NCBI RefSeq assembly: GCF_000332175.1
Contig: NZ_KB235914.1
Location: 4,121,793-4,185,792 of the forward strand
Length of the DNA stretch: 64,000 bases
Source of the DNA: Pseudanabaena sp. PCC 6802
GTDB taxonomy: Bacteria; Cyanobacteriota; Cyanobacteriia; Pseudanabaenales; Pseudanabaenaceae
Reading direction: 5' to 3'
In this document: positions 1,872 through 26,380 of the stretch, one piece after another
Position numbering within the stretch: position 1 is the first letter of the stretch
How the letters are laid out: the number at the start of each line of letters is the position of its first letter
Position numbers and translations under genes: made by a program
The notes under the pieces: model-generated
What the model was told of the DNA's origin: nothing
The model's input: the letters and a program-made list of their open reading frames with translations, nothing else
Databases searched by the model: none

Positions 1872-2642
1872 TTAAACTTCAGGCTCAACCCCTAGTGCCC
1901 TTAACTGGGCTTTAAGCATTTCTACTTTCTGCTGCTCCTGCTCCGCGCGCTGACGCTCCTGCTCCGTGCGCTGACGCTCCTGTGCAATCTGCTCCTCTTG
2001 GGTGGGCAACCATACATTATTAGCATCGTACCAACGCAACCAGTCGGACTCTATGCCTTGATAAAACCCATGCCAAATGCCCAGCCCCAATTGCAATTCC
2101 TCAACCCAAAACCTGGCTGCTTCCCTATCTTGTTCGGTATATTTGCCGTTCTGCCATCTGAACTTGCGAAACTCGCTATTACGCTCGTCAAACGTGATAT
2201 AGTGTGGCACTTGCAAAATCTGTTCGTAAACCTCCCACTTAGTTGGAGGACTGCCAAGTTTGCGGACATTTCTCCCTAAATCCTCCGCCTCGGTACCTTC
2301 AGAGATCAACTCCACCACTAGTAAAGGACTCTTGCCTTCGTCCCATAGCACGTAGCTTTGGCGCATTTCTCGATCGCGATACAGTCGAGTCCCGTCCACC
2401 ACCACAAACCAATCGGGGCGTTTGTACCAGTTGAGATGGTCGAGGTCATAGTACAGATTGAGATCGCTGGCGATAAAAATGCGATCGCTCGGATAGTTAG
2501 GCGGCTGACAAGTTTGGCTGAGTACTTGTGGCTGATATAGATGGAATTCGTCAGGCAATCCTGAATCCTCTGGATAGTCGCTAGGCAGATCGTACATTGT
2601 TGGTTGTACTTTGCCTACGAGTGGCTTAATGGGTTGATACAT
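1872..2642 (-). CDS. Uma2-family (DUF820) putative restriction-endonuclease-like protein with C-terminal coiled coil
   Basis: Core LLVVELISEGTEAED...KWEVYEQILQVPHYITFD matches the Uma2 E...D...K motif pattern; QERQRTEQERQRAEQEQQK coiled-coil tail common in cyanobacterial copies. Confidence 0.7.
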   Translation of the reverse strand: MYQPIKPLVGKVQPTMYDLPSDYPEDSGLPDEFHLYQPQVLSQTCQPPNYPSDRIFIASDLNLYYDLDHLNWYKRPDWFVVVDGTRLYRDREMRQSYVLWDEGKSPLLVVELISEGTEAEDLGRNVRKLGSPPTKWEVYEQILQVPHYITFDERNSEFRKFRWQNGKYTEQDREAARFWVEELQLGLGIWHGFYQGIESDWLRWYDANNVWLPTQEEQIAQERQRTEQERQRAEQEQQKVEMLKAQLRALGVEPEV

Positions 2643-4578: not shown

Positions 4579-6756
4579 ATGGCTAAAATCAGGCCACCAC
4601 TCGAAGAAATGACTTTGCGCCAATTGCGTAGGGTTGCTCAGGAGTACGAAATTTCCCGCTATAGCCGTATGCGCAAGTCTCAATTGCTTGAGGCTATTTT
4701 GGCAGCAAAAGCTCAGAGGAATGAGTTGCACTCTCTTGGGCATCCCTCCCATCACAATATGGATATGCAAGAGATCGTAGAAGCCAAAAAATTTGATTTA
4801 GGAAGTGAGGAGCCAGTGTCCGTATTATTAACGCAGGTAGATGAAGCTTTAGGCGACCTACCAGGAGGTTATGGGGAAAGTCGGATTGTCCTAATGCCAA
4901 GAGATCCGCAATGGGCCTACGCATATTGGGACATTTCCAACTCTGAAAAAGAGAAAAAACGCCAGCAAGGTGGTCAAAAGCTAGCTTTACGTCTTTATGA
5001 CTCCACCGGGCTGAATTTGGATCGTCAAGTTCCTCACAGCGTTCAAGAATATGGCTGTGATGAGTTAGCTAGGGAATATTATCTGCAAATTCCAGTCAGC
5101 GATCGCGACTATATTGTTGAAATTGGCTATCGCTGTGCTGACGGTCGTTGGCTACCCATAGTTAAGTCGGCATCAGTACGCGTCCCTCCCATGTATCCAT
5201 CCGACTGGGTAGAAGATCATTTCATTACGGTTTCTTGGGAAAAGGGACTGAATGGAGAGAACCTGTTTGCACTGGTATCGCCCGATGGAATGGATACCGT
5301 TAACGAACTCGAGCCAGAGTCTGCCAATACCTTGGAAGCGCAGCACCTTGCAGGGTCCCTCCAGGAGCGATCGCAGATGTCTGGTGCGGGCATGATGGAA
5401 GAATCCGTGAGTTCTTACATTTTCCCATCGGGTATGGGGGCATGGGCTAGCGGCAGTGGCATGTCTGGTGTCGGTGCGTCTGGTGTTGGCACGTCCGGTG
5501 TTGCTATGTCTGGCGTTGGCATGTCCGGTGTTGGTATGTCCGGTGTCGGTATGTCTGGCGTTGGCATGTCTGGCGTTGGCATGTCCGGTGTCGGTATTTC
5601 CGGGGTCGGCATGTCTGGCGTTGGAGTTAGCCTATCCGGTATTGGTATGTCTGGGGTCGGCATGTCCGGGGTCGGTATGTCTGGCGTTGGAGTTAGCCTA
5701 TCCGGTATTGGTATGTCTGGCGTTGGCATGTCTGGCGTTGGTATGTCTGGCGTTGGCATGTCTGGCGTTGGCATATCCGGTGTCGGCATGATGTCCGGTG
5801 TCGGCATGATGTCCGGTGTCGGCATGATGTCCGGTGTCGGCATGATGTCCGGTGTCGGCATGATGTCCGGTGTCGGCATGATGTCCGGTGTCGGCATGAT
5901 GTCCGGTGTCGGTATGTCTGGTATTGGTGTTGGCATGTCCGGTATTGGTTTATCCGGTGTCGGTATGTCTGGTGTCGGCATGTCCGGTATTGGCGTTGGT
6001 ATGTCCGGTGTCGGTATGTCCGGTATTGGTGTTGGCATGTCCGGTGTCGGCATGTCTGGTGTCGGCATGTCTGGTATTGGTGTTGGCATGTCCGGTATTG
6101 GTTTATCCGGTGTCGGTATGTCCGGTGTTGGTATGTCCGGTATTGGCGTTGGTATGTCCGGTATTGGCGTTGGTATGTCCGGTGTCGGCATGTCTGGTAT
6201 TGGTTTATCCGGTGTCGGCATGTCCGGTATTGGCGTTGGTATGTCCGGTGTCGGCATGTCTGGTATTGGCGTTGGTATGTCCGGTGTCGGTTTATCCGGT
6301 GTCGGCATGTCTGGTATTGGCGTTGGCATGTCTGGTATTGGTTTATCCGGTGTCGGTATGTCTGGTGTTGGCATGTCTGGTGTCGGTATGTCTGGCGTGG
6401 GTCTGTATGGGCTTGGCATGTCTGGCATCGGCATGTCTGGCATCGGCATATTCTCTGGATCCGGTGTTCCGCAACGTCCTCGGCAGTTCTGGTTAATTGC
6501 CGATGCCGAGTTGATCGTTTATGGAGCCACAGAACCGGATGCCAATGTTACGATCGCCGGTCGTCCCATTGCCCTTAATCCTGATGGCACTTTCCGTTTT
6601 CACATGTCCTTCCAGGATGGTGTTATTGACTTCCCCATCTTTGCCGTAGCAGCCGATGGCGAACAAAATCGCTCTATTCACATGAAGTTTGAGCGTCAAA
6701 CACCTGAGCGTCGCACTAATACCAAAGAGGCAGCAGTGCCAGAGTGGATCGGATAG
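4579..6756 (+). CDS. Rho_N (Rho termination factor N-terminal) + DUF4912-like protein with giant (MSGVG)n low-complexity core
   Basis: LEEMTLRQLRRVAQEYEISRYSRMRKSQLLEAILAAK is a Rho_N motif; PRDPQWAYAYWDIS block recalls DUF4912; residues about 290-630 are tandem MSGVG/MMSGVG/MSGIGVG units; good SD (GGAGG) 8 nt before ATG. Confidence 0.8.
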   Translation: MAKIRPPLEEMTLRQLRRVAQEYEISRYSRMRKSQLLEAILAAKAQRNELHSLGHPSHHNMDMQEIVEAKKFDLGSEEPVSVLLTQVDEALGDLPGGYGESRIVLMPRDPQWAYAYWDISNSEKEKKRQQGGQKLALRLYDSTGLNLDRQVPHSVQEYGCDELAREYYLQIPVSDRDYIVEIGYRCADGRWLPIVKSASVRVPPMYPSDWVEDHFITVSWEKGLNGENLFALVSPDGMDTVNELEPESANTLEAQHLAGSLQERSQMSGAGMMEESVSSYIFPSGMGAWASGSGMSGVGASGVGTSGVAMSGVGMSGVGMSGVGMSGVGMSGVGMSGVGISGVGMSGVGVSLSGIGMSGVGMSGVGMSGVGVSLSGIGMSGVGMSGVGMSGVGMSGVGISGVGMMSGVGMMSGVGMMSGVGMMSGVGMMSGVGMMSGVGMMSGVGMSGIGVGMSGIGLSGVGMSGVGMSGIGVGMSGVGMSGIGVGMSGVGMSGVGMSGIGVGMSGIGLSGVGMSGVGMSGIGVGMSGIGVGMSGVGMSGIGLSGVGMSGIGVGMSGVGMSGIGVGMSGVGLSGVGMSGIGVGMSGIGLSGVGMSGVGMSGVGMSGVGLYGLGMSGIGMSGIGIFSGSGVPQRPRQFWLIADAELIVYGATEPDANVTIAGRPIALNPDGTFRFHMSFQDGVIDFPIFAVAADGEQNRSIHMKFERQTPERRTNTKEAAVPEWIG
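5440..6450. repeat. About 1 kb hierarchical tandem repeat (15-bp atgtcYggtgtYggY units; 7 perfect copies of 18-bp atgatgtccggtgtcggc at about 5780-5905; 36-bp sub-unit duplicated at about 5617-5716)
   Basis: Direct reading of the sequence; coding in-frame for MSGVG repeats on + strand, produces artefactual PDMPTPD ORF on - strand. Confidence 0.95.
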
Positions 6757-6846
6757 GTCACATCAAAACCTCATCTAGCTAAATCAGCTAATAGCAATGC
6801 GTCCCGACTAGAAGGTTCTGGTCGGGACGTTTGTTCTGTCTACAGC

Positions 6847-9202: not shown

Positions 9203-9399
9203 ACGAAATACTCAAGCTAGATCCTGATGCTAGTATAGCCCTGCGTCCTTGAGGAAATTTCTAGCAAATAAACCACTTTACAGAGGGAATCCCCCCACAA
9301 TCGCCCCAATTGGTTGAGGGCAGAAGGCTCTGCCCCTATCCCCCCTAATAATCCTACAATTATTGGTATATTGGTACGTTTTCTCCTGGGGATTGCGCT

Positions 9400-11022
9400 A
9401 TGACCGTAACTGAATCATTGCTGGATCGAATGCCTGCCAATACAATGCAGAATTTGCAGCGCGTCGATCGCTTTTGGCAAGCATATAGATCCCAACAGCA
9501 GACAATTCCAGTGGTGGTACAGCAGAGCGCAGTAGACTTAAACGAGCTTGACTGCGATGTGGTAATTTGTGGCGGCACGCTTGGCGTGTTTATTGGTTGC
9601 GCTCTAGCTGTGCGGGGATGGCGAGTGACGATTGTCGAGCAGGGAATTTTGCGCGGTCGCGAACAGGAATGGAATATCTCGCGCCCGGAATTAGAGGCTT
9701 TTCTAGAACTAGATCTGCTAACCCCAGAGGAATTGCAACGGGCGATCGCCACAGAATACAACCCCGGTCGAGTTAGCTTCCTGGGCGGTGTAGAACTGTG
9801 GGTAAGGGATGTCTTGAATATTGGAGTCGATCCGGTGTTTCTGCTAGAGGCATTGAAACAGAAATTTCTCGCTAGCGGCGGTAAACTCCTGGAAAAAACT
9901 GGGTTTGAGAAAGCAACCGTGCATCCCAATGGCGTAAGTGTTATGACTAACGCGCTGGAACCCGATCGAGAGTCTGGGACTGCAATTAAAGCGCGATTAC
10001 TCCTGGATGTAATGGGGCATTTCAGCGCGATCGCTCGCCAGGCTAGGCAAGGACAAAAAACCGATGGGGTTTGTATGGTCGTGGGCAGTTGCGCCCAAGG
10101 GATGCCACAAAAAGACTTTGGCGATCTAATCGTGACGTTTGCTCCCATAAAGAACAAGTGTCAATATTTCTGGGAAGCTTTCCCTGCCAGAGACGGCAGA
10201 ACCACGTACATGTTTACCTATGCTGACGCTCGTCCCCAGCGCCCTAGCTTTGCAGAATTATGGGAGGAATATCTCTCGCAGTTGCCGCAATATCAGAATG
10301 TCGATCTCCAGCAAGTTAAATTCCTGCGTGCCCTATTCGGATTTTTTCCATCCTATCGCGCTTCTCCTTTGCAAACCGCCTGGGATCGGATTCTGCAAGT
10401 GGGAGATAGTAGCGGCAGTCAGTCGCCCCTGAGCTTTGGGGGGTTTGGTGCCATGTTGCGGCATCTCGTGCGCTTGGCCAATGGGATTGACTCAGCGTTA
10501 AAGAGCGATTGCCTCAGTTGCGAAGCATTGCGCTTATTGCAACCCTATCAACCCAATCTGTCCGTGACGTGGCTGTTCCAAAAAGCGATGAGTGCGGACA
10601 TAGATCGAGATGTCGAACCGGAGCGGATAAATTATATGCTTTCGACCGTATTCCAATGCATGCAAGCACTGGGAGAACCAGTTCTGAAGCCTTTTCTCCA
10701 GGATGTCGTACAGTTTCCGGCTCTATCGCAAACGATGTTGAAGATGGCGATCGCCGATCCCGTGTTAGTAGGCAAAGTCATCCAACAGGTAGGCATAGTC
10801 GCTTTACTAGATTGGACGCGCCATTACCTCAGCTTAGGCGGGTATAGCCTTTGCGATCGCCTTGGAGAAGTACTCAAACCCATTTTGCCGAATCTGATCC
10901 CAGAGCAACAGTATTTTTGGCAATGTCAATTAGATGCTTGGAAATTCGGCTCTGGTGGAGATTATTTGACTGAATTAGCGATCGGCAGTCAGCAGTCAAC
11001 TTTTAGCGAGAAAATCTTATAA
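9400..11022 (+). CDS. FAD-dependent oxidoreductase, CruA/CruP-like (lycopene cyclase family) candidate
   Basis: DVVICGGTLGVFIGCALAVRGWRVTIVEQG Rossmann FAD motif; size and organisation recall cyanobacterial CruP; family assignment from memory only. Confidence 0.5.
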   Translation: MTVTESLLDRMPANTMQNLQRVDRFWQAYRSQQQTIPVVVQQSAVDLNELDCDVVICGGTLGVFIGCALAVRGWRVTIVEQGILRGREQEWNISRPELEAFLELDLLTPEELQRAIATEYNPGRVSFLGGVELWVRDVLNIGVDPVFLLEALKQKFLASGGKLLEKTGFEKATVHPNGVSVMTNALEPDRESGTAIKARLLLDVMGHFSAIARQARQGQKTDGVCMVVGSCAQGMPQKDFGDLIVTFAPIKNKCQYFWEAFPARDGRTTYMFTYADARPQRPSFAELWEEYLSQLPQYQNVDLQQVKFLRALFGFFPSYRASPLQTAWDRILQVGDSSGSQSPLSFGGFGAMLRHLVRLANGIDSALKSDCLSCEALRLLQPYQPNLSVTWLFQKAMSADIDRDVEPERINYMLSTVFQCMQALGEPVLKPFLQDVVQFPALSQTMLKMAIADPVLVGKVIQQVGIVALLDWTRHYLSLGGYSLCDRLGEVLKPILPNLIPEQQYFWQCQLDAWKFGSGGDYLTELAIGSQQSTFSEKIL

Positions 11023-13798: not shown

Positions 13799-13892
13799 TA
13801 GCGTGCAGTGAGCTATCAGCGGTTAGCTTTTCTTAGACTTGCAAGGCGTACTCCCGGACTTAGGGACTATATCAGGAATGGATAGCATAAGA

Positions 13893-13977
13893 CGGAGAGG
13901 GGGGGATTCGAACCCCCGATGGCTTGCACCATAGCGGTTTTCGAGACCGCCGCATTCAACCACTCTGCCACCTCTCC
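13893..13977 (-). tRNA. tRNA-Ser (anticodon CGA)
   Basis: Minus-strand GGAGAGGTGGCAGAGTGGTTGAATGC...GGTCTCGAAAACCGC...long variable arm...GGTTCGAATCCCCCCTCTCCG; 7-bp acceptor stem, anticodon loop CT-CGA-AA, 85 nt, no encoded CCA. Confidence 0.9.
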
Positions 13978-14146
13978 AATTGTTATGCAGGTAGCATTCT
14001 AGTCGAGTTTAGCATCAGTCTGCTCGATCGTCGCTCAAAATATATTTCGATCGCAGGCGAAACCGATCGCAATGTTTGATTAATATTAAAAGATTGCCAA
14101 TTTTATGATTGCCAATTTATTCGTTCAAACCTAACTGCTAATTACC

Positions 14147-16456: not shown

Positions 16457-19400
16457 TCAACTTATCAGATCCCGAAATCTCGGATCGGTGCGAATGCGAT
16501 CGAAATCTGCATCTGTCTTTGCCATCTCTCGATACTGATCGGGATTGAGTTGAATCGCTCGTTGCAGATTCTCAAGAGCCAGATCGATGTCACCCAGCAA
16601 AGCATAAGCACAAGCTTTGTTGTAAGAGGGGTTAGGAGCGTCAGCTTTAATCTCAATGGCTTTGTCATAGGATGCGATCGCTTCTTCATAGCGTCCCAAA
16701 TAAGCGAGAGTAACACCTCGGCTGTCCCATGCTTCCTGTTTATCGGGTTTAATTTCAAGGGCTTTGTCATAGGATGCGATCGCATCCTCGTAGCGGCCCA
16801 AGCTAAATAGAGCATTACCTCTGAGGAAACATGCATCCTTGTGGTTGGGATTAATGGCAATTACTTTATCGTAGGAAGCAATTGCCTCTTCATAGCGTCC
16901 TAATTTCCCCAGAGTATTGCCTCGGTTGAACCATACGTCGGGGTTGTCGGGTTTAATCTCAAGGGCTTTGTCATAGGATGCGATCGCCTCTTCATAGCGT
17001 CCTAAGTCATTTAGAGCATTACCTCGGTTACCCCATGCTTCGTACTTATCGGGCTTGATTTCCAAGGCTTTATCATAGGAGGCAATCGCCTCTTCATTCC
17101 GTCCTAACTTTCTTAAGACAACACCTCGGTTATTCCAAGAATCATGGTTGTCAGTTTTGGTCTCTAAAGCCTTGCCATAAGAAGCTATCGCCTCTTCATA
17201 GTGACCCAAGTTATATAGAGCAAGGCCTAGGTTCTTCCATGCTTCGTGAGAGTCGGGTTTGATCTCAATAGCTTTTTCATAGGAAGCAAGCGCCTCCTCA
17301 TAGCGTTCCAAGTTAGCGAGAGCAAGACCTCGATTGTTCCATGCTTCATATTTGTCAGGTTTAATCTCTAGAGCTTTGTTGTAGGAAGCTATCGCCTCTT
17401 CGTAGCGTTCTAAGTTAACAAGAGCACTAGCTCGGTTGCTCCATACTTCGTGAGAATCCAGCTTTATCTCCAGTGTTTTGTCATAGGAAACGATCGCTTC
17501 TTCATCTCGTTCTAAGTCTTTTAGAGAATTTCCTCGGTTTTCCCATGCAGCGTTGTTAAATGGGTTTATCTCTAAAGCTTTATCATAGGAAGCGATCGCG
17601 TCTTCATTGCGCCCTAACCTTCTCAGAACAACGCCTCGATCGTTCCATGCAACGCTGTCATCGGGTTTTATCTCTAGAGCCTTGTCATAGGAAGCAAGTG
17701 CCTCTTCGTAGCGTTCCAAGTTAATAAGAATATTACCTCGGTTAATCCACGCGACTTGGTAATCGCTGTTAATTTCAACGACTTTATTATAGGAAGCTAT
17801 CGCCTCTTTATTGCGCCCTAACCTTCTCAGAACAACGCCTCGATTTTCCCATGCAATGTCGTCATCAGGTTTTATCTCTACAGCTTTGTCATAGGAAGCA
17901 AGTGCCTCTTCATAGCGTTCCAGGTCAACAAGAATATTGCCTCGGCAAACCCATGCATTCTGGTAATCGCAGTTAATTTCAACAGCCTTATTGTAGGAGG
18001 CAAGTGCCTCTTCATTCCGTCCTAAGTCTTTTAGAACATTGCCTCGGTTTTTCCATGCACCGTCGTAATTAGGTTTTATCTCTAATGCTTTATCGTAGGA
18101 AGCTACCGCCCCTTCATTCCGTCCTAGTTTTCTTAGGACAATACCTCGGTTGCTCCATGTATTGCAATCCTCAGGTTTTATCTCTAGGGCTTTATCGTAG
18201 GAAGCAAGTGCCTCTTCATAGCGTTCTAGGTCAGCAAGAATATTGCCTCGGCAAACCCATACATCCTGGTAATCGCTGTTAATTTCAACAGCTTTACTGT
18301 AGGAAGCAAGCGCCTCTTCATTCCGTCCTAAGTCTTTTAGAACATTGCCTCGGTTACCCCACGCTTCATACTTATCCGGTTTAATCTCTAAAGCTTTGTC
18401 ATGACAAGCAATTGCCTCTTCGTAGAATCTCATGTTTCTCAGAGTGCAACCTTTGTTATTCCAATCTTCGTGTGAATCCGGCTTAATCTCTAAAGCTTTT
18501 TCATAGGATGCGATCGCCTCTTCATGACGCGCCAAATTGTATAGTGCAAGGCCTCGGTTGCTCCATGCTTCGTGAAAGTCGGACTTAATCTCTACAACTT
18601 TGTCCCAAGAATCAAGTGCCTCTTCATCGCGTTCCAAACTATATAGAACATGACCTCGGCTGTACCATGCTTCATGGAAGTCAGGTTTTATCTCTAGAGC
18701 TTTATCAAAAGAAGCGATCGCATCCTCATAGCGTTCCAATTTATTGAGAGCAAAACCTCGACCGTACCATGCTTCATGGAAGTCAGGTTTTATCTCTATG
18801 ACTTTGTCCCAAGACGCGATCGCTTCCTCATAGCGTTCTAATTTATTGAGAGCAAGACCTTGGCCATACCATACCTCATAGAAGTCAGGTTTTATCTCTA
18901 TGACTTTGTCCCAAGACGCGATCGCCTCTTTATAACGTTTCAAACTATTATATAGAACACCACCTCTAATGTTCCATGCTTCATAGAAGTCGGGTTTTAT
19001 CTCAAGAGCTTTACCCAAAGACGAGATCGCATCCTCATAGCGTCCCAATTTATTGAGAGCAAGACCTCGACCGTGCCATGCTTCATGGAAGTCGGATTTT
19101 ATCTCGAGAGCTTTGTCCAAAGACGAGATCGCATCCTCATAGCGTCCCAAATTATATAGAATACTCCCTCGATCATGCCATGCTTCATGGAAGTCGGATT
19201 TTATCTCGAGAGCTTTGTCCAAAGAAGAGATTGCCTCGTCATAGCCTCGCAAGTCATGTAGAGCAAGACCTCGTCTATACCATGTCATGTATAAGTCAGG
19301 CTCGTTGTTTAAAGCTCTTTCCCACAAAGAGAGTGCCTCTTCGTAGAACCTTAATTCGTAAAATGAATTGCCTAAGTCCGCTAAAAGCATACCATTGGCG

Positions 19401-26083: not shown

Positions 26084-26181
26084 TGGGTGATGGGTGATGG
26101 GCGATGGGTAATGGGCGATGGGCGATGGGCGATGGGTGATGGGTGATGGGTAATGGGCGATGGGTGATGGGTGATGGGCGA
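26084..26181. repeat. Heptanucleotide tandem repeat (GGGTGAT/GGGCGAT/GGGTAAT) x14, STRR-like
   Basis: Direct reading; starts 1 nt after stop of preceding ORF. Confidence 0.95.
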
Positions 26182-26213
26182 TAACGCAGGGGTTTCGCAT
26201 TTGTCCGACCATC

Positions 26214-26258: not shown

Positions 26259-26380
26259 TACCGTTCGTTCCATACCGTTTGCCATCCCCATACCGTTCGT
26301 TCCATACTGTTTGCCATCCCCATACCGTTCGTTTCATACCATTTGCCATCCCCATACCGTTCGTTCCATACCAGCCGATC
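26259..26380. repeat. 32-bp tandem repeat x about 3.6 (cataccgttcgttccataccgtttgccatccc)
   Basis: Direct reading; contains internal 11-bp sub-repeat ccataccgttY. Confidence 0.9.

What the first reader, a model, noticed from the sequence alone, without database searches (positions are those of the whole stretch)
4579..6756. Rho_N/DUF4912 protein with about 1 kb of near-perfect (MSGVG)n coding tandem repeats
About 340 residues are built from MSGVG, MMSGVG and MSGIGVG units. These are encoded by 15- and 18-bp DNA repeats, including seven identical 18-bp copies in a row and a duplicated 36-bp sub-block. That degree of DNA-level perfection implies very recent expansion or contraction by slippage or recombination. 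The Gly/Met/Ser/Val composition predicts an intrinsically disordered, possibly phase-separating or fibre-like core. It is sandwiched between a Rho_N nucleic-acid-binding-like N-terminus and a conserved C-terminal domain. A Met-rich Gly repeat of this kind is not something I recognise from described proteins.
Basis: seen in the sequence. Interest (0 to 1): 0.7.

Follow-up and report, generated by a model that had tools for sequence, protein, structure and literature searches.

The report
Hyper-expanded MSGVG linker in cyanobacterial Sll0185-family protein
This gene encodes a core cyanobacterial protein of unknown function whose short conserved 'MSGVG' linker motif has been copied in frame from the usual 1-3 times to 58 times, one case of a recurrent habit of this protein family that nobody appears to have described.

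Summary
ORF 4579-6756 (+) encodes 725 aa. Its parts are Rho_N (aa 8-49), DUF4912 (aa 98-212, FN3-like fold), a 340-aa uncharged repeat (aa 290-629, 58 PhiSGPhiG units, 55 Met) and a conserved about 70-aa C-terminal beta-sandwich.

It is the ortholog of a pan-cyanobacterial family, Sll0185 in Synechocystis, that is usually about 410 aa long and has no reported function. MSGVG is not a new sequence. It is an ancestral linker motif present in 1-3 copies in almost every member.

Amplification of linker motifs recurs independently in the family:
- MSGVG in at least five lineages
- (VSSYA)n, up to a 1001-aa protein
- (MVTGSGQ)n, in a 1174-aa protein
- (GSVQHVA)n
- (IGASEKY)n

Copy number differs between genomes whose flanks are 95-96% identical.

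Only a 137-bp block is perfect at the DNA level. Elsewhere the units differ almost only at third codon positions. A syntenic ortholog at about 71% nucleotide identity carries the same kind of array. The array is therefore old, selected at peptide level and locally homogenised.

AlphaFold gives pLDDT of about 32 across the repeat. My best reading, which is inferred, is a multivalent cohesive 'sticker-spacer' linker, possibly sensitive to methionine oxidation. I rate it a new variant of a known, uncharacterised kind, with moderate interest.

The parts
4579..6756 (+). Complete CDS, 725 aa plus stop; ortholog of the pan-cyanobacterial Rho_N-DUF4912 family (Sll0185 type)
   Evidence: ORF list; Pfam; 60-69% identity to about 410-aa cyanobacterial homologs; alignment A1 has many invariant columns on both sides of the repeat.
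4600..4725 (+). Rho_N (helix-extended-helix) domain, aa 8-49
   Evidence: Pfam PF07498, E 1.5e-14; the only PDB sequence match is the N-terminus of Rho; AF2 helices 13-52 with pLDDT above 90.
4870..5214 (+). DUF4912 domain, aa 98-212, FN3-like beta-sandwich
5215..5445 (+). Non-repeated part of the disordered linker, aa 213-289, carrying the family's conserved short motifs (AGSL..., SSYIFPSGxGxW)
   Evidence: Consensus and nearly invariant columns in A1 and A2; low pLDDT.
5446..6465 (+). In-frame tandem array, aa 290-629: 58 PhiSGPhiG units (MSGVG, MSGIGVG, MMSGVG, LSGVG...), uncharged, 16% Met, 39% Gly
   Evidence: pLDDT about 32.
5611..5720 (+). Two 44-bp exact copies (5611-5654 and 5677-5720), 66 bp apart, within a 66-bp higher-order repeat
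   Evidence: TRF period 66 at 5516-5756, 85% matches.
5776..5912 (+). Perfect 18-bp periodicity (7.6 copies, MMSGVG units); the only truly recent-looking block
6466..6753 (+). Conserved C-terminal region, aa 630-725: RPRQFW motif, small Ig-like beta-sandwich (aa 644-703, window 6508-6687) and conserved tail (...TNTKE.A..EW)
   Evidence: Invariant columns P634 to E722 in A1; AF2 strands 644-703 with pLDDT 63-83 and about 80 in the ortholog; only weak Pfam similarity to Glucodextran_B and Big_6.
6799..6830 (+). Terminator-like hairpin (14 pairs, 8 G-C) followed by a T-rich tail, 43 nt after the stop codon
   Evidence: consensus scan only.

Best explanation
The gene is the ortholog of a core cyanobacterial protein, Sll0185 in Synechocystis PCC 6803, usually annotated 'DUF4912 domain-containing protein'.

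The family architecture is:
- a Rho_N helix-extended-helix head
- a short disordered stretch
- an FN3-like DUF4912 domain
- a disordered linker of about 120 aa that carries three conserved short motifs (GSxQ, SSY.FPSG, and 1-3 copies of MSGVG)
- a small Ig-like C-terminal domain

In this lineage the native MSGVG motif has been amplified in frame to 58 copies (340 aa). The likely mechanism is replication slippage or unequal recombination between 15-, 18-, 21- and 66-bp units.

Shown:
- The amplification arose on the branch shared with one known relative (L001).
- It has since been kept and turned over.
- The peptide (hydrophobic-Ser-Gly-hydrophobic-Gly) is under purifying selection while the DNA drifts at synonymous sites.
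- One block (MMSGVG x7.6) was homogenised very recently.

Inferred:
- The array is an uncharged, disordered 'sticker-and-spacer' polymer, with Met/Val/Ile every 5-7 residues in a Gly/Ser matrix.
- It raises the valency of a motif that normally mediates weak self- or partner-association. This would tune the cohesion, reach or material state of whatever assembly the protein forms.
- The Rho_N head probably attaches that assembly to nucleic acid. A paralogous branch of the family attaches the same DUF4912-linker-C-terminal module to the membrane through a PstS-like domain and a transmembrane helix.
- Because the stickers here are methionines, cohesion could be weakened by methionine oxidation, as in yeast Pbp1.
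For: Identity:
- Pfam domains.
- 3000 or more homologs, 60-69% identical, about 410 aa.
- Invariant columns on both sides of the repeat.
- Sll0185 is a family member.

Ancestral motif:
- The consensus reads ...SSYVFPSGVGMWAVPTxSGLTMSGVGMSGVGFSAS...RPRQFW.

Age and maintenance:
- L001 is syntenic (CobD-Psb27-gene-RmlD) at about 71% nucleotide identity, and carries a 656-aa ortholog with MSGVG/MSGIGIG units and the same array edges.
- In the N-terminal tree, window and L001 are sisters inside a Pseudanabaena/Tumidithrix clade whose other members have 121-133-aa linkers.

Selection:
- Nucleotide diversity is 0.41-0.53 at third codon positions and 0 at first and second positions of the Ser, Gly and Gly codons. 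Only conservative M/L/I and V/I changes occur.
- 12 DNA versions encode MSGVG.

Recent homogenisation:
- 137 bp of perfect 18-bp periodicity.

Recurrence and turnover in the family:
- Independent arrays of MSGVG, SSY, MVTGSGQ, GSVQHVA and IGASEKY.
- Microseira L039 versus L057: 96% nucleotide identity in flanks, 685 versus 801 aa.
- L005 versus L019: 95% identity, 802 versus 1001 aa.

Disorder:
- pLDDT about 32 over aa 241-643. The linker is also of low confidence in the compact ortholog.

Membrane-anchored paralogs:
- PBP_like_2 + TM + 1-10 DUF4912 + SGxG array + the same C-terminal domain.

Met-rich low-complexity precedent:
- Review PMC9534829, citing Kato et al. 2019.
Against: - No experiment or paper assigns any function to the family.
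- Nucleic-acid binding by the Rho_N head is inferred from the domain name and fold only.
- AF2 shows no docking of the motif onto either folded domain.
- Most family members work with only 1-3 motifs, so high valency is not required for the core function.
- Different lineages amplify chemically different motifs (Tyr-, Gln- or Met-based). This fits a generic spacer as well as a specific binding motif.
- Concerted evolution could produce part of the 'synonymous-only' pattern if a few founder variants were amplified.
- Methionine is not conserved at the first unit position in other expanded members (LYSESGVG, YTTSGIG). A redox role would therefore be lineage-specific at best.
Confidence: 0.6

Rival explanations
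1. Passive entropic spacer or molecular ruler. Only the length and flexibility of the uncharged linker matter. The array sets the distance between the Rho_N/DUF4912 head and the C-terminal domain, and the sequence is whatever was easiest to amplify.
For: Different lineages amplify different motifs (MSGVG, VSSYA, MVTGSGQ, GSVQHVA, IGASEKY) within the same linker. Total length is highly variable, even between close relatives. The array is predicted disordered.
Against: The unit peptide is conserved strictly, with variation confined to synonymous sites. Only pre-existing conserved motifs are amplified, never the variable parts of the linker. All amplified units share regularly spaced hydrophobic or aromatic residues in a Ser/Gly background.
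Confidence: 0.22
2. Functionally neutral slippage by-product. The disordered linker tolerates insertions, and repetitive DNA, once seeded, grows and shrinks by slippage without benefit.
For: Most family members have a linker of about 122 aa (median), and only 6 of 71 metagenome loci are expanded. Copy number turns over rapidly. There is a perfect 137-bp block.
Against: There are no frameshifts or stops across 1 kb. No non-conservative replacement occurs in 58 units, while third positions are nearly saturated between two alleles. The expanded state is retained in two lineages that have diverged to about 71% nucleotide identity. The same phenomenon recurs in at least five lineages for this motif alone.
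Confidence: 0.12
3. Methionine-based metal (Cu(I)) binding tract or sacrificial antioxidant sink. The 55 regularly spaced methionines (mostly M-x4-M) would bind soft metals or scavenge reactive oxygen species.
For: 16% Met, with a dominant Met-Met spacing of 5 residues (27 of 55 intervals). The host is an oxygenic phototroph, judged from Psb27 next door. Met-rich copper-binding motifs are established knowledge from other proteins (recalled, not tested here).
Against: Expanded orthologs replace Met with Tyr, Thr or Leu units. There is no His, Cys, Asp or Glu in the array. The protein has no signal peptide, whereas Met-rich copper proteins are mostly periplasmic (recalled knowledge). The conserved core of the motif is SGxG, not Met.
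Confidence: 0.04
4. Assembly artefact: a collapsed, expanded or chimeric repeat.
For: Short-read assemblies clearly struggle here. Many database hits are fragments that start inside the array. Several draft genomes have N-runs inside their arrays (L020, L035, L046).
Against: The reading frame is intact across 1020 bp, and both flanks match the family in the same frame. Units are heterogeneous and organised in higher-order blocks. Independent assemblies, including complete chromosomes (L019, CP143273.1), carry comparable arrays. The exact copy number in the window remains unverified.
Confidence: 0.03
5. A divergent Rho transcription termination factor.
For: The Rho_N domain is present. A 2026 paper discusses this family as 'Rho-like' in cyanobacteria, which lack Rho.
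Against: Neither a Rho RNA-binding (cold-shock-like) domain nor an ATPase domain is detected by Pfam, NCBIfam or fold. [quoted passage not shown]
Confidence: 0.02

Closest known systems
Cyanobacterial Rho_N-DUF4912 family (Sll0185 of Synechocystis PCC 6803; 'DUF4912 domain-containing protein' / 'Rho termination factor domain protein')
   Same: Same domain order. 60-69% identity in the N-terminal 266 aa. Invariant C-terminal domain and tail. The same conserved linker motifs. True orthology is supported by synteny with the nearest relative.
   Different: Usual length is about 410 aa with 1-3 MSGVG motifs. Here the protein is 725 aa with 58 units, the largest SGxG count I saw, equal to P0151. The family itself has no known function.
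PBP_like_2-TM-(DUF4912)n-SGxG array-C-terminal domain paralogs (e.g. P0121, P0122, P0127, P0151)
   Same: They share the DUF4912 domain, the SGxG-type repeat linker and the same C-terminal beta-sandwich. Many are also expanded, with 18-58 SGxG units.
   Different: Their N-terminus is a signal peptide, a PstS-like periplasmic binding domain and a transmembrane helix instead of Rho_N, often with 2-10 DUF4912 copies. No such paralog lies in this window.
Transcription termination factor Rho (and plant RHON1)
   Same: They share the about 43-aa N-terminal helix-extended-helix domain (Pfam Rho_N; PDB 3l0o_A, E 0.0016).
   Different: This protein has no RNA-binding cold-shock-like domain, no RecA-type ATPase and no hexamer-forming part.
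Methionine-rich low-complexity domains of yeast Pbp1/ataxin-2 and TDP-43 (an analogy, not homology)
   Same: Uncharged, Met-rich, Ser/Gly-rich low-complexity sequence attached to a nucleic-acid-binding protein. In Pbp1, methionines drive phase separation and their oxidation melts the droplets (PMC9534829).
   Different: Here the sequence is a strict tandem array of one pentapeptide rather than a degenerate low-complexity region. It is bacterial. No phase behaviour has been tested.
Tyr-based [G/S]Y[G/S] low-complexity domains (FUS type), FG-nucleoporin repeats, and Gly-rich elastomeric pentapeptide proteins (elastin VPGVG; abductin, Gly/Met-rich). All recalled from general knowledge
   Same: Regularly spaced hydrophobic or aromatic 'stickers' in a Gly/Ser spacer. 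Sister lineages of this family use Tyr-based units ((VSSYA)n, (LYSESGVG)n, (YTTSGIG)n) in the same position.
   Different: There is no sequence relationship. The array contains no proline, unlike elastin. It is cytoplasmic and bacterial. Material properties are untested.

Membership tests
Cyanobacterial Rho_N-DUF4912 (Sll0185) family | N-terminal Rho_N domain | tested here: met
   PF07498, E 1.5e-14, aa 8-49.
Cyanobacterial Rho_N-DUF4912 (Sll0185) family | DUF4912 domain following Rho_N | tested here: met
   PF16258, E 3.2e-44, aa 98-212, full profile coverage 1-117 of 118.
Cyanobacterial Rho_N-DUF4912 (Sll0185) family | Conserved C-terminal beta-sandwich preceded by RPRxFW and followed by the TNTKE..A..EW tail | tested here: met
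   Invariant columns P634, R635, F637, W638, A641 to A655 and onward to E722 in a 50-sequence alignment; AF2 strands 644-703.
Cyanobacterial Rho_N-DUF4912 (Sll0185) family | Linker motifs AGSL, SSY.FPSG.G.W and MSGVG | tested here: met
   All are present. MSGVG is amplified.
Cyanobacterial Rho_N-DUF4912 (Sll0185) family | Orthology (position in the family tree, synteny with the nearest relative) | tested here: met
   Sister to L001 within the Pseudanabaena/Tumidithrix clade. Shared CobD-Psb27-gene-RmlD order. There is no wider conserved synteny in the phylum.
Transcription termination factor Rho | Rho RNA-binding (cold-shock/OB) domain | tested here: not met
   No Pfam or NCBIfam match beyond aa 8-50. 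TIGR00767 scores 16.5 bits against a cut-off of 509.
Transcription termination factor Rho | RecA-type ATPase domain / hexameric ring | tested here: not met
   No ATPase domain by Pfam. The AF2 model contains only a helical head and two beta-sandwiches.
Phase-variable contingency locus (simple sequence repeat that switches a gene on and off) | Repeat unit not a multiple of 3, so that slippage shifts the frame | tested here: not met
   All periods (15, 18, 21, 36, 51, 66, 87 bp) are multiples of 3. Slippage changes length, not frame.
Redox-sensitive Met-rich low-complexity condensate domains (Pbp1/TDP-43 type) | Met-rich, uncharged low-complexity sequence | tested here: met
   55 Met in 340 aa (16%), with no charged residue.
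Redox-sensitive Met-rich low-complexity condensate domains (Pbp1/TDP-43 type) | Self-association or phase separation that is reversed by methionine oxidation | not testable with these tools
   This needs purified protein. Only the literature precedent was read.
Elastomeric Gly-rich pentapeptide proteins (elastin-like, abductin) | Extracellular cross-linked elastic matrix; high Pro+Gly content | tested here: not met
   There is no signal peptide in the sequence and a nucleic-acid-type head domain. The array has 0 Pro and 39% Gly. Mechanical properties are not testable here.

The most novel reading that the evidence does not exclude
The Sll0185 family is a bacterial counterpart of eukaryotic low-complexity-domain scaffolds. 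A nucleic-acid-bound form (Rho_N) and a membrane-anchored form (PstS-like + TM) would associate through the same sticker-spacer linker and C-terminal domain. Evolution would then tune valency directly, by amplifying one of three native stickers (Met-, Tyr- or Gln-based). In this organism the 58-unit methionine version would make the assembly responsive to oxidative or light stress through reversible Met oxidation. If so, nature has already supplied a 'valency series' from 1 to about 60 motifs across species for a core cyanobacterial protein.
Probability: 0.15. Interest if true: 0.8.

Novelty: new variant of a known kind. Interest (0 to 1): 0.5.

Why it matters
The protein is part of the cyanobacterial core genome. 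It has been raised as the only 'Rho-like' candidate in a phylum without Rho, yet it has no known role.

Its linker motifs are repeatedly and independently amplified. The amplification stays in frame and under peptide-level selection, with copy number changing between near-identical genomes. This singles out those motifs as the functional elements of the linker.

It also offers a natural allelic series for testing how motif valency controls assembly in a bacterial cell. The methionine-based version here is a concrete, cheap test case for redox-sensitive cohesion in an oxygenic phototroph.

On the practical side, these arrays break short-read assemblies and gene calls. Many database entries are fragments that start at an internal Met.

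Tried and rejected
1. Minus-strand ORF 5415-6449 (344 aa, PTPDMPTPDI repeats) and two plus-strand off-frame ORFs. Rejected as mirror products of the repeat, because only the main frame continues into the conserved flanks.
2. Literature. 'DUF4912' gave one relevant paper, which says the function is unknown. 'sll0185' gave only an intergenic mention. Searches for Rho_N with cyanobacteria and for Met-rich/Gly-rich repeats gave nothing useful. One search failed on phrase length.
3. Conserved gene neighbourhood as a clue to function. None was found across Thermosynechococcus, Scytonema and this window.
5. The C-terminal domain against Pfam at a permissive threshold gave only sub-threshold Glucodextran_B and Big_6 hints.
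6. Same-species contigs for a strain-level copy-number comparison. The exact protein is absent from the 15-billion-protein collection and the gene-position index. The best metagenome relative is 65% identical. The best genome relative is L001 at 82%. Close pairs in other lineages were used instead.
7. Search for (MSGVG)n outside the family. Almost all hits are fragments of this family. The exceptions are MarR proteins with an ASGAG-type low-complexity N-terminus and a pentapeptide-repeat giant, neither of which is comparable.
8. Phage origin. There is no relative in viral contigs.
9. A second DUF4912 gene in the window. None was found.
Full report
**1. What is in the sequence**

ORF 4579-6756 on the plus strand encodes 725 aa. 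Pfam finds Rho_N at aa 8-49 (E 1.5e-14) and DUF4912 at aa 98-212 (E 3.2e-44). NCBIfam matches Rho models only over aa 8-50 and far below their cut-offs.

Residues 290-629 (window 5446-6465) form a 340-aa tract made of G132, S65, M55, V53, I20 and L9. It has no charged residue and no proline. The tract parses into 58 units of the form [MLIVAT]-S-G-[VIL]-G. The main types are MSGVG, MSGIGVG, MMSGVG and LSGVG.

TRF reports a period-15 array of 60.8 copies at only 70% matches. It also reports higher-order periods of 51, 66 and 87 bp, and one nearly perfect period-18 block.
- Perfect 18-bp periodicity runs from 5776 to 5912 (137 bp, 7.6 copies).
- Every period is a multiple of three.

A 14-pair hairpin with a T-rich tail follows the stop codon at 6799-6830. 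One correction is needed: only a small part of the array is near-perfect at the DNA level.

**2. What protein it is**

The N-terminal 266 aa find more than 3000 homologs. All of the best ones are cyanobacterial, 60-69% identical, about 404-446 aa long, and annotated 'DUF4912 domain-containing protein' or 'Rho termination factor domain protein'. The Synechocystis PCC 6803 member is Sll0185.

Alignments show dense invariant columns on both sides of the repeat. These include a C-terminal block, RPRxFWLxADAELIVYGATEPDA...DGTFRF...DGEQ.R...F.R.T..R.TNTKE.A..EW.

AlphaFold models of the window protein and of a compact Thermosynechococcus ortholog agree on four elements:
- a helical Rho_N head
- a confident beta-sandwich for DUF4912
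- a long low-confidence linker (pLDDT about 32 across aa 241-643 here)
- a small C-terminal beta-sandwich

The gene sits alone between divergently and convergently oriented neighbours: CobD and Psb27 upstream, RmlD downstream. Neighbourhoods are not conserved across the phylum.

**3. The repeat is an amplified native motif**

In ordinary family members the linker reads ...AGSLFGSMQxVPGS...SSYVFPSGVGMWAVPTxSGLTMSGVGMSGVGFSASxxPxRPRQFW. It has 1-3 copies of MSGVG and nearly invariant S-G...S-G-x-G columns. The window protein keeps the flanking motifs (AGSL, SSYIFPSGMGAW, RPRQFW). It simply has 58 units where its relatives have one to three.

A search with the repeat alone recovers almost exclusively fragments of this same family.

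**4. Age, selection and turnover**

The nearest genome hit, L001, is a cyanobacterial contig binned into a 'Rhizobium' MAG. It is syntenic with the window at about 71% nucleotide identity. It encodes a 656-aa ortholog with MSGVG/MSGIGIG units and the same array edges (...YGLGMSGIGMSGIG...).

In a tree of the N-terminal region, window and L001 are sisters. They sit inside a Pseudanabaena/Tumidithrix clade whose other members have 121-133-aa linkers. The expansion therefore predates the split of these two lineages.

Within the window array:
- Nucleotide diversity is 0.41-0.53 at third codon positions.
- Diversity is zero at the first and second positions of the Ser, Gly and Gly codons.
- Only M/L/I and V/I replacements occur.
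- The 33 MSGVG occurrences use 12 DNA versions.

This is the signature of peptide-level constraint on an old array. The perfect MMSGVG block is a recent local homogenisation.

Direct strain comparison was impossible because the exact protein and species are absent from the collections. Close pairs elsewhere in the family show fast turnover:

| Pair | Flank nucleotide identity | Protein lengths |
|---|---|---|
| Microseira L039 vs L057 | 96% | 685 vs 801 aa |
| L005 vs L019 | 95% | 802 vs 1001 aa |
| L104 vs L116 | 83% | 750 vs 684 aa |

**5. A family-wide habit**

Independent lineages have amplified different native linker motifs:
- MSGVG: window/L001; L074/L075; L077; L017; the metagenome clade L104/L116/L120 with 25-41 SGxG units; and P0133 (42 SGxG units).
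- SSY, as (VSSYA/VSSYG/SSYEQA)n: Floridaenema, Phormidium, Argonema, Aerosakkonema and Microseira, up to a 1001-aa protein.
- GSxQ, as (MVTGSGQ)n: Oscillatoria princeps (1174 aa).
- GSxQ, as (GSVQHVA)n: Snowella.
- (IGASEKY)n: two Oscillatoriaceae genomes.

In an independent metagenome sample the median linker is 122 aa, and 6 of 71 complete loci are expanded.

A second architecture carries the same DUF4912-linker-C-terminal module behind a signal peptide, a PstS-like PBP_like_2 domain and a transmembrane helix. It often has several DUF4912 copies and 18-58 SGxG units. In the examples read (P0121, P0123, P0127), the basic residues that follow the transmembrane helix suggest the module is cytoplasmic there too. 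This is inferred from the sequences.

**6. How it probably works**

Shown:
- In-frame amplification of a conserved motif, by a slippage- or recombination-type process.
- Long-term retention.
- Peptide-level selection.
- Predicted disorder.

Inferred:
- The array is an uncharged sticker-and-spacer polymer that multiplies the valency of a motif normally used for weak association. The partner may be itself, one of the two beta-sandwich domains, or an unknown protein.
- The Rho_N head probably provides attachment to nucleic acid. The paralog provides attachment to the membrane.
- Methionine stickers suggest sensitivity to oxidation. The precedent is yeast Pbp1 and TDP-43, where Met oxidation melts low-complexity-domain droplets and Msr enzymes restore them (PMC9534829).

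Against a specific role:
- Most orthologs manage with 1-3 motifs.
- Other lineages use Tyr- or Gln-based units.
- AlphaFold docks nothing.

A passive length-setting spacer and a tolerated neutral expansion remain live rivals. A copper or antioxidant role, an assembly artefact and a true Rho function are unlikely, for the reasons given under rival explanations.

**7. Comparison with what is known**

Membership in the Sll0185/DUF4912 family is met on every feature tested. Membership in Rho fails on the RNA-binding and ATPase domains.

The only paper found that discusses the family (Microbiome 2026, PMC13613805) calls it 'Rho-like'. It notes that the family is conserved across cyanobacteria, and states that the protein cannot terminate transcription alone and needs investigation. 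No paper found describes the linker arrays.

Functional analogies to Met-rich and Tyr-rich low-complexity domains, FG repeats and Gly-rich elastomers are analogies only.

**8. Verdict**

This is a real, well-supported feature and a new variant of a known but uncharacterised family.

It is more interesting at the family level. The same linker in a core cyanobacterial protein shows recurrent, selected motif amplification. Interest 0.5.

Noticed in passing
window 16646-19273: Long array with a 102-bp period (25.7 copies, about 70% matches; also seen at 204 and 306 bp). 102 bp equals 34 codons, which suggests a large TPR-type repeat protein. The strand and ORF were not examined.
   Followed up: no
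window 26084-26182 and 26259-26372: A heptanucleotide tandem repeat (TGGGTGA x14, 88% matches) is followed by a 32-bp repeat x3.6 (93% matches). The context was not examined.
   Followed up: no
window 9400-11022 (+): A 540-aa ORF with no Pfam match at E <= 1e-5. It overlaps a 265-aa ORF on the minus strand (9360-10157).
   Followed up: no
window 13891-13978 (-): The only RNA gene detected in the 64 kb is tRNA-Ser (anticodon CGA).
   Followed up: yes
L001 (CALRKB020000095.1): The closest relative of this locus lies on a contig assigned to a 'Rhizobium sp. Q54' MAG. It carries CobD-Psb27-DUF4912-RmlD in cyanobacterial order, which points to a mis-binned cyanobacterial contig. Family members labelled Chloroflexaceae (P0361) and Vampirovibrionales (P0043) may be similar cases.
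   Followed up: partly
Proteins P0121, P0122, P0123, P0127, P0151 (representative library): A second, apparently undescribed architecture. It has a signal peptide, a PstS-like PBP_like_2 domain, a TM helix, 1-10 DUF4912 domains, an SGxG repeat linker and the same C-terminal domain, reaching 1000-1970 aa.
   Followed up: partly
L020, L035, L046 (linker arrays): Runs of N (translated as X) lie inside the repeat arrays of draft genomes. Many database proteins are fragments that start at an internal Met of the array. These arrays systematically break assemblies and gene calls.
   Followed up: partly
window 1872-2642 (-) and 1934-1982: A Uma2-family putative endonuclease gene lies next to the CobD gene, and it contains a 21-bp x2.3 tandem repeat.
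   Followed up: no
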